Source: the human T2T-CHM13v2.0 reference genome, Homo sapiens. Taken from it: 64,000 nt of DNA. The stretch spans positions 16,768,001-16,832,000 of the forward strand of contig CP086569.2 of the NCBI GenBank assembly GCA_009914755.4, given 5' to 3'. The notes under the pieces were generated by a model that saw nothing but the letters and a program-made list of their open reading frames with translations, ran no database searches and was not told the DNA's origin. Shown piece after piece: positions 12,871 through 43,687 of the stretch. The first letter of the stretch is position 1, and each line of letters begins with the position of its first letter. The translations under genes and the position numbers were made by a program.

Positions 12871-15127
12871 GAAATACCTGTTCCAAAAACACTGCTCTTA
12901 GACATTGCAAGTGGACTCATGCTTCTTTCCTTCAAAAGGAGTCAACCTTACCTTTCTGATGCTGCAGTGGAGAGCTGCAGTCTGGTGTGGATAAGCGTAT
13001 CCTGGGCACCATGCCATGGTGTAGACAACCCTTCACACTTAGTCTCCACCTAGAAAGCAGGGGTCATGACTTGCCATGTTGGTGTTCTGTTGAATGCTCT
13101 GTGAATAATTAATAAAGATAAAAAGAGGACACATATAAACACATACTGAAGCACTTAAAAATCGAGTTGTGTGAGTAATCTCAATGTTGCCAAAACTCAA
13201 CCACACTACTCCAGGACTGGTCAGCTTTGTCCTCCAAGGAGGTTGTTAGAAATGCAGAATTTCAAGTCTTCACCCCAGACTGAGTTAATTAGACCCTACA
13301 TGTTAACAAGATAAGAAGGAAGTTCCCATGCAGATTTAAGATTGAGAAGATCTCCTCTAGGCAAGTGGCTCTCAACTATAGCTGCACATTGTAAATCAAG
13401 GTCAGCATCGGTTTTATTGCTTTAAGGAGGTGTCCTTTACATCAGCATTTTACACAAAGAGCTCCTTGGGTCATTCTAATGTGGAGCCAAGAATAGGAAT
13501 CACTGTTGAAGCATCAACACTGTTTTTCACAGAAGTTGGCTTTGTATAGACCTACGGGGCCAGCCATCATTCACCGAATATCAATCCTCAATCCAAGATG
13601 TACCATATTCACGGAATAACCACTTTCTCTTGTCAGTCCTTTCTTCCTTCCTTTTTGGAGAATGTATTTCAGGTGCTACCTTCCTACAAAATGTAGAACA
13701 TATTTCTCCCTGCAAGATAATCTTATATTATTTAAAGACATGTTTCTGAGTTGAAATATAAAGGTGATGTTTTAAGAAGTAAAGAATACTTATCTTAGAA
13801 AACACTAAAAATTCTCACTTCAGTGTTGTGAAACTCAAATTATTATTTAAAAATGTATATAAAACTTCACTGCGAAACTCAAATTATATTTTATTTAAGA
13901 ATTGGTATGAAACGTTGTAAGGGCATATGTCACAGATTTGCTTATTTTGAAAGTAAACTGTAGAGTACACAAACAAAATGAATGGTTAATTTCATAACAT
14001 TCCAATTCTTAGAAAGCTAGAGAAAATATTCTTATCTTAGAGAATTAGTAGTTATTGTGTGGTCACCTGTCAAGGCAAAATGAAACTAAATTTCAAAATT
14101 TATTAAATAAATGTGAGAGTTATTTGCTCTATCAAAGCATATACATTTGTTTTAGATTTTGCTATTATTAGGGTATGGAAGGAAGACTTTTGTAGAGTTG
14201 TTGTATTGACATCTTTTATGTTCCTCAATATCCTTTCTTCTCCAACACTTACACTGTCACTTCTGTGTGGTGCTTTATCCGAGTATAACTGGACAACAGT
14301 CTTCCATGCTGCTTGGCTTAGGGTTTCTCTGACATAGCATAAGACATCCACAAAGCCCACCACTCACGGGCAGCCACAGATCATAGCGCCAATGGCGCCA
14401 CCCTTGGCCACTGCCTATCAGGAGCTGTAAAATAAGTGGTTTACCCCTTTGATGTCTCAGATAGACAATTTTAAGGTGTATTTCAGAGGCTTTTCAGAAG
14501 GTCCCTGACAGGATTGAACATGTGCTATTCTGGAGGTGGATGAGTCAATGAAGCATCATTGTACTGGGTGTTCTCTATTTTATTTCCTTTGTTCTAGACG
14601 CCTTCTTTCTGGAACTACATTCTTACCTAAATTATCCACCCACAAGCTTTTCCCACCACTGTTAAGGGAAGCCTGGGTAAGACTATAATCACATTATTTG
14701 CTTATCTTTCTTCCTCATTAGCTTGCATGTTTCTCTTGTAGATGAAGCTTTTTACTCACGTATCTTTGCAGCCCCTCACAACTACTGCACAAAATAAAAC
14801 AGGCACTCAAAAATTATTTTCTGGATCGGTGAATGGATCTCAGGGTCTACTTCTCCAAGAAGTTTACTTCTGATAGCTCTAGCTTTTTTTTCCAATGCTA
14901 ACATGCTTCATCTGCCCTTTCCAGCATTTTTCTGTAGCATATCAAGGACTTAAGTACTGTTTACTGCAAGATATTTAAGCACTTAACTCTTGTTCATGGC
15001 TTGTGTTTCAGTTTCAACTTGTCTATTCATTTTGCAGACGATTTCCTGAAGACAGAAATTCATAAAATTCATTTCAAGTAAGAAAACATAGGAAAGTACT
15101 TGGTCAACAGTAAAAGATACACAAGTG

Positions 15128-15540
15128 GTAATGATGATTGTGATGTAGATGGTGATGATGGTGATGGTGATGAAGATGATTGTGATGATGACGGTGATGA
15201 TGATTGTGGTGGTGATCATGGTGATGGTGGTGATGATGATGGTAATGGCAATGATGATGATAATGGTGATGATAATGATGGTGATGATTTTGGTGATGGT
15301 GATGATTGTGATGATAATGGTGATGGTGAAGTTGGTGACAGGGATGATAATGATGAAGACGACGGTAATGATGTTGGTGATGATGGTGATGGCAATGAGG
15401 GTAATGATGTTTCTGATGGTGATGGCAATGTTGGTAATGATGATTGTGATGATGACGATAGTGATGGTGATGATGATGATGATGGGGATGATGGTAATAT
15501 GATGGCAATAGGGGGAGTGATTATGACAATAATGATAGTG
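15128..15540. repeat. Imperfect hexamer minisatellite (GATGGT/GATGAT)n, ~410 bp (arm A copy)
   Basis: ggtgatgatggtgatggtgatgaagatgattgtgatgatgacggtgatgatg... ORFs in all six frames (His-rich, Asp/Gly-rich, Ile/Thr-rich) are repeat artefacts. Confidence 0.9.
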
Positions 15541-16159
15541 TAATGACCAATAGGCAGACATCCTATATTCAGTATAAAAGCAGAGTTCAGATATTAGCAG
15601 ACTTCCATGGTTAACTTTTTTACCTGAGGGTGGGTCACATAGGAAGGTCTGTCTCTATGCAAGGCAAAGGGAAGTCATCATGTTCAATTCCAATTTCCTT
15701 AATTTCTATAGCAATAATAGCTCTATTGTTTCACCATCATCACATATTATCCCAGTTGGAATCCATGTGTCTCATAGGAAGGCAATCGACACATTTTCAT
15801 TTACACCTCAAACTGGCTTATCAAAGGAGATTCTAGCACTTTTAGTAAAAATCCTGTCATTTACAACTAGGCGTTAGCTAATCTAAATAAGTCAGGCAGA
15901 GGAAGATAAATACTGCATGATCTCACTGATGTGTTGAATTTTAAAAGTTGACCACATAAAAGCAGAAGGTAGGACAATGGTTACCAGGACTGAGGTGTGG
16001 AAAAATTGGGGAGATGATTGTCAAACAGTACAAACTTTTAGTTATGATGAAAGATAAACAGGTTCTGGAGAACCAGTGTACAGTATGGTGATGATAGTTA
16101 TCAATACTGTATTGTATGCTTGAAATGCACTAAAACAGTAGGTCTTAAGTGTCCTCACT

Positions 16160-41185: not shown

Positions 41186-41605
41186 CACTATCATTATTGT
41201 CATCATCACTCCCCCTATTGCCATCATATTACCATCATCCCCATCATCATCATCATCACCATCACTATCGTCATCATCACAATCATCATTACCAACATTG
41301 CCATCACCATCAGAAACATCATTACCCTCATTGCCATCACCATCATCACCAACATCATTACCGTCGTCTTCATCATTATCATCCCTGTCACCAACTTCAC
41401 CATCACCATTATCATCACAATCATCACCATCACCAAAATCATCACCATCATTATCATCACCATTATCATCATCATTGCCATTACCATCATCATCATCACC
41501 ACCATCACCATGATCACCACCACAATCATCATCACCGTCATCATCACAATCATCTTCATCACCATCACCATCATCACCATCTACATCACAATCATCATTA
41601 CCACT
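41186..41605. repeat. Hexamer minisatellite (arm B copy): 3 bp longer and with one base substitution relative to the arm A copy
   Basis: Translated ORF twins differ by one residue (N/H) and by one extra I or H codon: 41176-41625 gives 149 aa versus 134 aa for 15104-15508. Confidence 0.9.
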
Positions 41606-43687
41606 TGTGTATCTTTTACTGTTGACCAAGTACTTTCCTATGTTTTCTTACTTGAAATGAATTTTATGAATTTCTGTCTTCAGGAAATCGTCTGCAAAAT
41701 GAATAGACAAGTTGAAACTGAAACACAAGCCATGAACAAGAGTTAAGTGCTTAAATATCTTGCAGTAAACAGTACTTAAGTCCTTGATATGCTACAGAAA
41801 AATGCTGGAAAGGGCAGATGAAGCATGTTAGCATTGGAAAAAAAAGCTAGAGCTATCAGAAGTAAACTTCTTGGAGAAGTAGACCCTGAGATCCATTCAC
41901 CGATCCAGAAAATAATTTTTGAGTGCCTGTTTTATTTTGTGCAGTAGTTGTGAGGGGCTGCAAAGATACGTGAGTAAAAAGCTTCATCTACAAGAGAAAC
42001 ATGCAAGCTAATGAGGAAGAAAGATAAGCAAATAATGTGATTATAGTCTTACCCAGGCTTCCCTTAACAGTGGTGGGAAAAGCTTGTGGGTGGATAATTT
42101 AGGTAAGAATGTAGTTCCAGAAAGAAGGCGTCTAGAACAAAGGAAATAAAATAGAGAACACCCAGTACAATGATGCTTCATTGACTCATCCACCTCCAGA
42201 ATAGCACATGTTCAATCCTGTCAGGGACCTTCTGAAAAGCCTCTGAAATACACCTTAAAATTGTCTATCTGAGACATCAAAGGGGTAAACCACTTATTTT
42301 ACAGCTCCTGATAGGCAGTGGCCAAGGGTGGCGCCATTGGCGCTATGATCTGTGGCTGCCCGTGAGTGGTGGGCTTTGTGGATGTCTTATGCTATGTCAG
42401 AGAAACCCTAAGCCAAGCAGCATGGAAGACTGTTGTCCAGTTATACTCGGATAAAGCACCACACAGAAGTGACAGTGTAAGTGTTGGAGAAGAAAGGATA
42501 TTGAGGAACATAAAAGATGTCAATACAACAACTCTACAAAAGTCTTCCTTCCATACCCTAATAATAGCAAAATCTAAAACAAATGTATATGCTTTGATAG
42601 AGCAAATAACTCTCACATTTATTTAATAAATTTTGAAATTTAGTTTCATTTTGCCTTGACAGGTGACCACACAATAACTACTAATTCTCTAAGATAAGAA
42701 TATTTTCTCTAGCTTTCTAAGAATTGGAATGTTATGAAATTAACCATTCATTTTGTTTGTGTACTCTACAGTTTACTTTCAAAATAAGCAAATCTGTGAC
42801 ATATGCCCTTACAACGTTTCATACCAATTCTTAAATAAAATATAATTTGAGTTTCGCAGTGAAGTTTTATATACATTTTTAAATAATAATTTGAGTTTCA
42901 CAACACTGAAGTGAGAATTTTTAGTGTTTTCTAAGATAAGTATTCTTTACTTCTTAAAACATCACCTTTATATTTCAACTCAGAAACATGTCTTTAAATA
43001 ATATAAGATTATCTTGCAGGGAGAAATATGTTCTACATTTTGTAGGAAGGTAGCACCTGAAATACATTCTCCAAAAAGGAAGGAAGAAAGGACTGACAAG
43101 AGAAAGTGGTTATTCCGTGAATATGGTACATCTTGGATTGAGGATTGATATTCGGTGAATGATGGCTGGCCCCGTAGGTCTATACAAAGCCAACTTCTGT
43201 GAAAAACAGTGTTGATGCTTCAACAGTGATTCCTATTCTTGGCTCCACATTAGAATGACCCAAGGAGCTCTTTGTGTAAAATGCTGATGTAAAGGACACC
43301 TCCTTAAAGCAATAAAACCGATGCTGACCTTGATTTACAATGTGCAGCTATAGTTGAGAGCCACTTGCCTAGAGGAGATCTTCTCAATCTTAATTCTGCA
43401 TGGAACTTCATTGTATTTCTCACATATATCACATGTTCATGGGGGAAAAAATGAAAAAGAATTGTGAACTATAAAGTACTCCACATTTTACATACAAAAA
43501 CATCCTGAATATATGTTGAGGTTAGCAGGAAGAAATCATCTCTTACTCCTTAAGATTGGAATCTACAGAGGGAAGAATACCTTATGTCTTAAAAATAATA
43601 TTTTGGACACATAGCAAATTTCAAATCCAGCTTTATTTTTTGAAGAATTAAATGGGGGTCACAATATTTTTCCAGTAAACATTCCAG

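What the first reader, a model, noticed from the sequence alone, without database searches (positions are those of the whole stretch)
13322..43409. Dimensions match human Y-chromosome palindrome P7, a palindrome with no known genes
From memory of the published human MSY palindrome table (Skaletsky et al. 2003), the smallest Y palindrome, P7, has ~8.7 kb arms, ~12.6 kb spacer and ~99.97% arm-to-arm identity, and together with P6 carries no recognised protein-coding gene. The window gives 8.72 kb arms, 12.64 kb spacer and very high identity. I found no exon-like ORFs in the arms, only Alu, L1, minisatellite and unique non-coding sequence. If this identification is correct, the arm homogeneity reflects ongoing arm-to-arm gene conversion (Rozen et al. 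2003). That would be operating on a palindrome with no gene to preserve, which matters for the idea that conversion is structural rather than selected. The identification rests on recollection of numbers I cannot verify here.
Basis: partly seen in the sequence, partly recalled or inferred. Interest (0 to 1): 0.75.

Follow-up and report, generated by a model that had tools for sequence, protein, structure and literature searches.

The report
Human Y-chromosome palindrome P7 (known)
This is the already well-studied smallest palindrome of the human Y chromosome (P7): two 8.7 kb mirror-image copies around a 12.6 kb spacer, with no genes, kept almost identical by copying between the arms.

Summary
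The inverted repeat is real. The arms are 13316-22043 and 34685-43412 (8,728 bp each), the spacer is 12,641 bp and the span is 30,097 bp. Only 2 arm-to-arm substitutions lie outside simple repeats. The other differences are length or sequence changes in a minisatellite, an (AT)n tract and an Alu poly-A tail.

No human genome could be searched, so I placed the window using two published Y-STRs:
- DYS587 (GRCh38 chrY:15916825-15916914, [ATACA]n[(GTACA)(ATACA)]3) is present with exactly that structure and the same 90 bp length at 55284-55373.
- TRF10878 (chrY g.15884248, AC[n]) is present as (AC)20 at 22711, on the expected strand and within 4 bp of the expected spacing.

This puts the palindrome at about chrY:15,874,857-15,904,953. 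Published figures for P7 match: smallest inverted SD 8.7 kbp, span about 30 kbp, smallest Y palindrome, no known protein-coding gene.

The arms hold only Alus, old L1 fragments, a minisatellite, an AT-repeat and unique non-coding DNA. The spacer holds a full-length dead L1.

[quoted passage not shown] The puzzle of a palindrome with no gene was already raised in 2020. Verdict: identification correct, already known, low interest.

The parts
13316..22043 (+). Left (proximal) arm of the palindrome, 8,728 bp; perfect homology starts at about 13326
34685..43412 (-). Right (distal) arm, 8,728 bp, reverse complement of the left arm; perfect homology ends at about 43403
22044..34684 (.). Unique spacer, 12,641 bp. 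Its orientation matches GRCh38, because the AC repeat TRF10878 reads AC on the + strand near the left arm
13335..13335 (+). Paralogous sequence variant (T here, A in the other arm at 43394, arm orientation), about 10 bp inside the outer boundary
15522..15522 (+). Paralogous sequence variant (T here, G in the other arm at 41204, arm orientation); the only interior substitution outside simple repeats
15131..15495 (+). ATG/GTG-rich minisatellite (period 9/15/18/33) in the left arm; the copy at 41231-41603 is 3 bp longer. It produces spurious long ORFs on both strands
17647..17894 (+). (AT)n plus 13-mer repeat in the left arm next to an old partial Alu (17446-17647). The copy at 38832-39080 differs by small indels
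19657..20517 (-). Old, diverged L1 3' fragments (65-70% identity to the spacer L1) in the left arm; mirror copy at 36209-37069
21156..21496 (+). Young Alu (95.5% identity to an AluY probe written from memory) with a poly-A tail of about 60 nt in the left arm; mirror copy at 35232-35570. The tails differ in length
22711..22750 (+). (AC)20 microsatellite in the spacer = Y-STR TRF10878 (NC_000024.10:g.15884248 AC[n])
23900..29922 (+). Full-length L1 (6,023 bp) in the spacer. It has the canonical 5' start, a poly-A tail and the target-site duplication GAATGTGTGTATTCCC. ORF1 (25258-25818), endonuclease (25968-26426) and RT (27572-28143) are collinear but broken by stops and frameshifts
33296..34271 (-). 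Second L1 3' fragment in the spacer, antisense, 92.6% identical to the 3' kb of the full-length L1. Together they form a nested inverted repeat
55284..55373 (+). Y-STR DYS587, [ATACA]12[(GTACA)(ATACA)]3, 90 bp, 11.9 kb distal to the right arm. This is the anchor that places the window on GRCh38 chrY

Best explanation
[quoted passage not shown] It is an ancient inverted duplication of 8.7 kb of non-coding DNA around a 12.6 kb unique spacer.

The two arms stay nearly identical because they recombine with each other within one chromatid. Non-crossover events (arm-to-arm gene conversion) repeatedly overwrite one arm with the other. Crossover events flip the spacer, which makes its orientation polymorphic in men.

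Shown here: the structure, its placement on chrY by two STR anchors, the absence of coding potential, and a pattern of arm differences that fits a balance between mutation and conversion.

Taken from the literature: the age (duplicated by the human-chimpanzee ancestor), directly mapped conversion events, and recurrent inversions in P7.

Inferred: homogenisation here needs no gene to protect. It follows from having long, close, near-identical inverted repeats on a non-recombining chromosome.
For: - Structure.
- Placement, DYS587: exact compound structure and 90 bp length as in GRCh38.
- Placement, TRF10878: (AC)20 on the predicted strand, within 4 bp of the predicted spacing over 32.6 kb.
- Both repeat counts (CAATA x11, AC x20) equal the average repeat numbers in the CSYseq panel.
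- Dimensions match the literature: 8.7 kbp arms, about 30 kbp span, smallest Y palindrome.
- No genes: for the literature. In the window, the only Pfam hits are L1 domains, all in the spacer.
- Homogenisation: with the published P6 arm mutation rate, about 70 substitutions are expected between 8.7 kb arms after 6.5 My without conversion. Only 2-4 are seen (P about 1e-25). The published P6 mutation and conversion rates predict 0.9-1.8 differences at equilibrium.
- The remaining differences sit in hypermutable simple repeats and at the very edge of the arm, where conversion is expected to be least effective.
- Literature: conversion events were scored in P7 in 44 samples and across P3-P9 in 142 assemblies. 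P7 spacer inversion is among the recurrent inversions. P7-homologous sequence was multicopy in the human-chimpanzee ancestor.
Against: - No direct alignment to a human Y reference was possible. Placement rests on two STR loci plus the dimensions.
- The CSYseq coordinate for DYS587 differs by about 60 bp from the Hakka-paper coordinate. Published STR coordinates are therefore loose, and the 4 bp agreement depends on which source is used.
- From the window alone, 2-4 substitutions would also fit a duplication only about 0.2-0.4 My old with no conversion. Excluding that relies on the literature.
- Arm GC (0.363) is not above the flanks (0.38), so this window shows no visible trace of GC-biased conversion.
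Confidence: 0.95

Rival explanations
1. P7 is kept as a palindrome by selection on an unannotated functional element in its arms. This could be an enhancer or open-chromatin site acting on genes elsewhere, or a transcript that folds into a long hairpin. Conversion would then be the means of preserving that element, not a by-product.
For: Cechova et al. [quoted passage not shown] About 80% of each arm is sequence I could not assign to Alu, L1 or simple repeats. CpG observed/expected is slightly higher in the arms (0.24) than in the flanks (0.10-0.15).
Against: There is no Rfam family in the window. There are no CpG-island-like segments other than the young Alus, which also explain much of the CpG excess. 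Arm ORFs have no protein domains. Y palindromes are poorly conserved across apes: only two are shared among the African great apes. Nothing in the sequence points to a particular element.
Confidence: 0.1
2. The repeat is simply young: an inverted duplication a few hundred thousand years old that has not had time to diverge, so no gene conversion need be invoked.
For: 2-4 substitutions in 8.7 kb correspond to about 0.19-0.37 My of divergence at the published arm mutation rate. The window alone cannot tell the two apart.
Against: The palindrome was recovered as P7 in Y assemblies spanning about 180,000 years of human Y history and in 142 further assemblies. Homologous sequence is inferred to have been multicopy in the human-chimpanzee ancestor. 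Conversion events in P7 were scored on the phylogeny.
Confidence: 0.02
3. The window is not human chrY P7. It could be an orthologous palindrome from another great ape, a paralogue on X or an autosome, or an assembly artefact that mirrors one copy.
For: No reference genome could be searched. An exact-protein look-up and a metagenome scan returned nothing.
Against: The compound DYS587 structure and length are identical to the GRCh38 repeat region. TRF10878 has the right motif, strand and distance. The CSYseq panel gave no output from a female sample, so these STRs are Y-specific. The two arms differ at specific sites and in three simple-repeat lengths, which a mirrored artefact would not show.
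Confidence: 0.03

Closest known systems
Human MSY palindrome P7 (Skaletsky et al. 2003 nomenclature)
   Same: Arm length 8.7 kb, span about 30 kb, arm identity above 99.9%, no protein-coding gene, and position between the Y-STRs TRF10878 (in the spacer) and DYS587 (12 kb distal) at about chrY:15.87-15.90 Mb in GRCh38.
   Different: Nothing detected. This is the locus itself. Identity counting indels is 99.83%, lower than the remembered 99.97%, but substitution-only identity is 99.95-99.98%.
Human MSY palindrome P6
   Same: The other singleton Y palindrome with no known protein-coding gene. It is homogenised by arm-to-arm conversion at a steady state of mutation and conversion, and has recurrent spacer inversion.
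   Different: P6 is much larger, with about 110 kb arms (about 220 kb together) and a 46 kb spacer. It lies at about chrY:16.2-16.4 Mb, around DYS533 (my own knowledge of the map, plus for the DYS533 coordinate).
Human MSY palindrome P8 (VCY palindrome)
   Same: A small singleton palindrome, the next smallest after P7, with the same conversion and inversion behaviour.
   Different: P8 carries the VCY genes, whereas the window has no gene. P8 also shows large structural variants.
Primate X-chromosome palindromes (Jackson et al. 2021) and the palindrover definition of sex-chromosome palindromes
   Same: Meets the operational definition: arms at least 8 kb, identity at least 98%, spacer at most 500 kb. 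Maintained by arm-to-arm conversion.
   Different: X palindromes are gene-dense and well conserved among apes. Y palindromes, including this one, are poorly conserved. This one has no gene.

Membership tests
Human Y palindrome P7 | Inverted repeat with arms of about 8.7 kb | tested here: met
   Arms are 8,728 bp each. The literature gives 8.7 kbp as the smallest inverted SD flanking a Y inversion and P7 as the smallest palindrome.
Human Y palindrome P7 | Total span about 30 kb, i.e. spacer about 12.6 kb | tested here: met
   The span is 30,097 bp and the spacer 12,641 bp. [quoted passage not shown] The explicit 12.6 kb figure is from memory only and was not found in any readable paper.
Human Y palindrome P7 | Arm-to-arm identity above 99.9% | tested here: met
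   Identity is 99.95-99.98% by substitutions and 99.83% counting indels in simple repeats. MSY palindromes exceed 99.9% (abstract of PMC3723533).
Human Y palindrome P7 | Located on human chrY at the annotated P7 interval | tested here: met
   This was tested indirectly. DYS587 (chrY:15916825-15916914) and TRF10878 (g.15884248) are present with the right structure, strand, order and spacing. A full alignment to a chrY reference was not possible with these tools.
Human Y palindrome P7 | No protein-coding gene in arms or spacer | tested here: met
   The only Pfam hits are domains of a dead L1 in the spacer. Arm ORFs give none. There is no Rfam family. Literature.
Sex-chromosome palindromes homogenised by arm-to-arm gene conversion | Structural criteria (arms at least 8 kb, identity at least 98%, spacer at most 500 kb) | tested here: met
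   against the criteria quoted.
Sex-chromosome palindromes homogenised by arm-to-arm gene conversion | Conversion events demonstrated on a phylogeny of haplotypes | not testable with these tools
   Only one haplotype is in hand. The literature reports this for P7. The window is compatible: observed differences match the equilibrium expectation.
Sex-chromosome palindromes homogenised by arm-to-arm gene conversion | Older than its arm divergence implies (orthologous duplication in another species) | not testable with these tools
   No primate genomes are available here. Cechova et al. infer multicopy status in the human-chimpanzee ancestor.

The most novel reading that the evidence does not exclude
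The arms of P7 contain an unannotated functional non-coding element, and selection on it rather than neutral structural persistence explains why a palindrome with no gene survives. The element could be a regulatory site acting on genes off the Y, or read-through transcription across arm-spacer-arm giving an 8.7 kb double-stranded hairpin RNA that feeds small-RNA pathways in the germline. My evidence neither supports nor excludes this. The regulatory version was already proposed in 2020.
Probability: 0.08. Interest if true: 0.5.

Novelty: already known. Interest (0 to 1): 0.1.

Why it matters
P7 has been a named feature of the human Y chromosome since 2003. Its gene conversion, inversion polymorphism, methylation and lack of genes have been studied in dozens to over a hundred complete Y assemblies.

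Confirming the identification is useful for the scan. It shows that the first-stage reader can recognise a real large-scale structure and name it correctly from its dimensions alone. It adds no new biology.

That question is real, but it is already in the literature and cannot be advanced from one haplotype.

Tried and rejected
- Rfam scan of the whole window: no family.
- Searching papers for explicit P7 coordinates as eight-digit numbers, some remembered and some predicted: only PubMed IDs matched, so this was useless.
- Searching for '12.6 kb' with 'palindrome': nothing. Two reviews did not hold the Skaletsky table.
- Bonito et al. 2021 turned out to be about P6 only. I used it for rates.
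- The CSYseq supplements hold no Y-SNPs in the interval. The Cechova supplement and the 2026 preprint supplement are not held as text.
- Exact-protein look-up of the 192-aa arm ORF in public assemblies: not on record.
- Exact 43-mer from just inside the arm's outer boundary against metagenome contigs, hoping for human contamination and a second haplotype: 0 hits.
- A larger, eroded ancestral palindrome: rejected, because there is no inverted homology beyond the outer arm boundaries apart from scattered Alus and an L1.
- A CpG-island promoter in the arms: rejected, because the only CpG-rich windows are the young Alus.
- I first read the CSYseq numbers 11 and 20 as reference alleles. The column is 'Average repeats', so they are weaker evidence than the Hakka-paper reference interval.
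- Bacterial-type tools (promoter/terminator scan, tRNA scan, defence and phage libraries) were not used, because the sequence is plainly primate (Alu and L1).
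Full report
**Observation.** The window contains one large inverted repeat. The repeat finder gives four collinear inverted blocks at 99-100% complementarity. BLAST of 12801-22600 against the reverse complement of 34101-43900 joins them into a single alignment: 13316-22043 versus 43412-34685, 8,733 columns, 99.83% identity with 5 mismatches and 7 gap openings. 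The arms are therefore 8,728 bp each, the spacer (22044-34684) is 12,641 bp and the whole structure is 30,097 bp.

A column-by-column MAFFT comparison shows where the arms differ:
- One substitution about 10 bp inside the outer edge (13335).
- One interior substitution (15522).
- A 3-bp indel in a minisatellite (15230).
- Small indels and a substitution in an (AT)n tract (17663-17712).
- Length and position changes in an Alu poly-A tail (21436-21479).

Counting substitutions only, identity is 99.95% (4 substitutions) to 99.98% (2 substitutions). The boundaries are sharp. No diverged inverted homology continues into the outer flanks, and seed-20 repeat finding shows none at the spacer ends.

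**Where the window comes from.** No human genome is among the searchable collections, so I looked for published markers that could be recognised in the sequence.

Tandem Repeats Finder shows an (ATACA)-type pentanucleotide array at 55284-55373 and an (AC)20 array at 22711-22750.

The CSYseq paper (PMC8423258) lists DYS587 as CAATA[n] at NC_000024.10:g.15916766 and TRF10878 as AC[n] at g.15884248.

The supplementary table of the Hakka MPS paper (PMC10839782) gives the DYS587 repeat region as chrY:15916825-15916914 (90 bp) with structure [ATACA]n[(GTACA)(ATACA)]3. Its coordinates for other loci agree with the GRCh38 (NC_000024.10) coordinates in CSYseq, so the build is GRCh38.

The window reads [ATACA]12[(GTACA)(ATACA)]3. 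That is the same compound structure and the same 90 bp. Anchoring on it puts window position 1 at about chrY:15,861,542. It predicts TRF10878 at window 22707, and the (AC)20 array starts at 22711 on the same strand. So the two loci are 32,573 bp apart in the window and 32,577 bp apart by the published coordinates.

CSYseq's own DYS587 coordinate is about 60 bp off the Hakka one, and several other loci differ by 3-36 bp between the two tables. Such coordinates are loose, and a 4 bp discrepancy carries no weight.

The repeat numbers in the window (CAATA x11, AC x20) equal the 'average repeats' of the CSYseq sample. I had first misread these as reference alleles. CSYseq gave no output from a female sample, so its loci are Y-specific.

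With this anchor the palindrome lies at about chrY:15,874,857-15,904,953 (GRCh38). I recall hg19 coordinates for P7 (17,986,738-18,016,824) that would lift over to almost exactly this interval. That is memory, and my attempt to verify it in the literature failed.

Because the AC array reads AC on the + strand near the left arm, as in GRCh38, the spacer has the reference orientation.

**Dimensions in the literature.** Hallast et al. (bioRxiv 10.1101/2022.12.01.518658) state two things. The Y inversions are flanked by inverted SDs 'from 8.7 kbp to 1.45 Mbp'. [quoted passage not shown] Shi et al. 2019 (PMC6790999) call P8 'the smallest except for P7'. Arms of 8.7 kb within a span of about 30 kb imply a spacer of about 12.6 kb, as in the window. 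I could not find the explicit 12.6 kb or the P7-specific 99.97% in any paper available to me.

**Content.** Each arm holds the following:
- An old partial Alu (17446-17647), next to an (AT)n plus 13-mer repeat.
- A young Alu (21156-21442, 95.5% identical to an AluY consensus that I wrote from memory and used only as a probe), with a poly-A tail of about 60 nt.
- Diverged L1 3' fragments at 19657-20517.
- An ATG/GTG-rich minisatellite at 15131-15495.

The minisatellite produces the only ORFs of 120 aa or more in the arms, in several frames on both strands. These translate to His-, Asp- or Ile-rich low-complexity strings. No arm ORF of 75 aa or more has a Pfam hit. Rfam finds nothing in the 64 kb. 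CpG-rich windows coincide only with young Alus.

The spacer carries a full-length L1 on the + strand (23900-29922, 6,023 bp). It has the canonical L1PA 5' start, a poly-A tail and a target-site duplication GAATGTGTGTATTCCC. Its ORF1, endonuclease and reverse-transcriptase domains are collinear but interrupted. An antisense L1 3' fragment at 33296-34271 forms a small nested inverted repeat with it.

**Mechanism.** Cechova et al. 2020 (PMC7585023) infer that P7-homologous sequence was already multicopy in the human-chimpanzee ancestor. With the arm mutation rate measured for P6 (6.18e-10 per base per year), two 8.7 kb copies left alone for 6.5 My should differ at about 70 sites. The window shows 2-4 (Poisson P about 1e-25). 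With the P6 conversion rate (6.01e-6 per base per year), the balance of mutation and conversion predicts about 1-2 differences, which is what is seen.

The residual differences sit where expected. They are in hypermutable simple repeats, whose mutation rates are high, and at the extreme edge of the arm, where a conversion tract must end.

The literature has measured the process directly:
- Conversion events in P7 across 44 Y assemblies.
- 3,239 events across P3-P9 in 142 assemblies, with a median tract of 542 bp, a GC bias and no ancestral bias.
- Recurrent NAHR-mediated inversion of palindrome spacers, P7 included.

In this window arm GC (0.363) is not higher than flank GC (0.38), so a GC-bias footprint is not visible at this scale. 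The T2T ape paper likewise found no relation between arm GC and spacer length on the Y.

**Rivals.** A very recent duplication would give the same arm identity (2-4 substitutions correspond to about 0.2-0.4 My). It is excluded only by published comparative and population data.

A non-human orthologue, a paralogue or an assembly artefact is unlikely. The STR matches argue against the first two, and the specific differences between the arms argue against the third.

The functional-element hypothesis cannot be tested from one sequence. It was already put forward, with preliminary ENCODE evidence, by Cechova et al.. Nothing in the window points to a specific element.

**Comparison and novelty.** This is not merely similar to P7. 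On every testable criterion it is P7. Later assemblies have quantified conversion, inversion, repeat content and methylation for P7. Novelty: already known. Interest is low.

**Dead ends.**
- Numeric coordinate search.
- The '12.6 kb' search.
- Reviews without the palindrome table.
- Supplements not held as text.
- No SNPs for the interval in the CSYseq supplements.
- Exact-ORF look-up.
- Metagenome scan for a second haplotype.

Noticed in passing
window 23900-29922 (+): Full-length 6,023 bp L1 in the spacer, with an intact target-site duplication (GAATGTGTGTATTCCC at 23884-23899 and 29923-29938) and a canonical L1PA 5' end. ORF1 and ORF2 are broken. It makes up nearly half of the spacer, so the 12.6 kb spacer was about 6.6 kb before this insertion.
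   Followed up: partly
window 28947-29922 (+) and 33296-34271 (-): The 3' end of the full-length L1 and a second, antisense L1 3' fragment form a nested inverted repeat inside the spacer: about 1 kb at 92.6% by BLAST, with a 724-bp core at 95%, and about 3.4-3.9 kb apart. In principle this is a substrate for a smaller sub-inversion.
   Followed up: no
window 55284-55373: The forensic and genealogical Y-STR DYS587, here as allele 18 ([ATACA]12[(GTACA)(ATACA)]3), lies 11.9 kb distal to the palindrome. The CSYseq HGVS coordinate for it (g.15916766) is about 60 bp away from the repeat start given by the Hakka MPS paper (15916825).
   Followed up: yes
window 43688-43732: A perfect (AT)22.5 tract lies 276 bp outside the outer end of the right arm, with no counterpart outside the left arm. 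AT dinucleotide runs are themselves hairpin-forming and break-prone. Its position next to a palindrome boundary may or may not relate to how the duplication arose.
   Followed up: no
window 15131-15495 and 41231-41603: The arm minisatellite (ATGATGGTG-like, periods 9/15/18/33) differs by one 3-bp unit between the arms. It creates 117-193 aa ORFs in several frames on both strands, and these could be mistaken for genes by an ORF finder.
   Followed up: yes
window 58525-58637: An imperfect GAAG/GGAA-rich tetranucleotide array (about 28 units, 82% matches), followed within about 60 bp by an antisense Alu (58700-58972). It may be a named Y-STR, but I did not identify it.
   Followed up: no
window 62267-62557 (-) and 63054-63342 (+): Two fairly young Alus (92% and 89% identity to the AluY probe) in inverted orientation about 500 bp apart in the distal flank. 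An old L1 fragment (61866-62775) is interrupted by the first of them.
   Followed up: no
window 44191-44297: A short tandem array of a 20-26 bp unit (AGTTTGCTTTCGAAAGACTC, about 4 copies), about 0.8 kb distal to the right arm. The unit is partly self-complementary.
   Followed up: no
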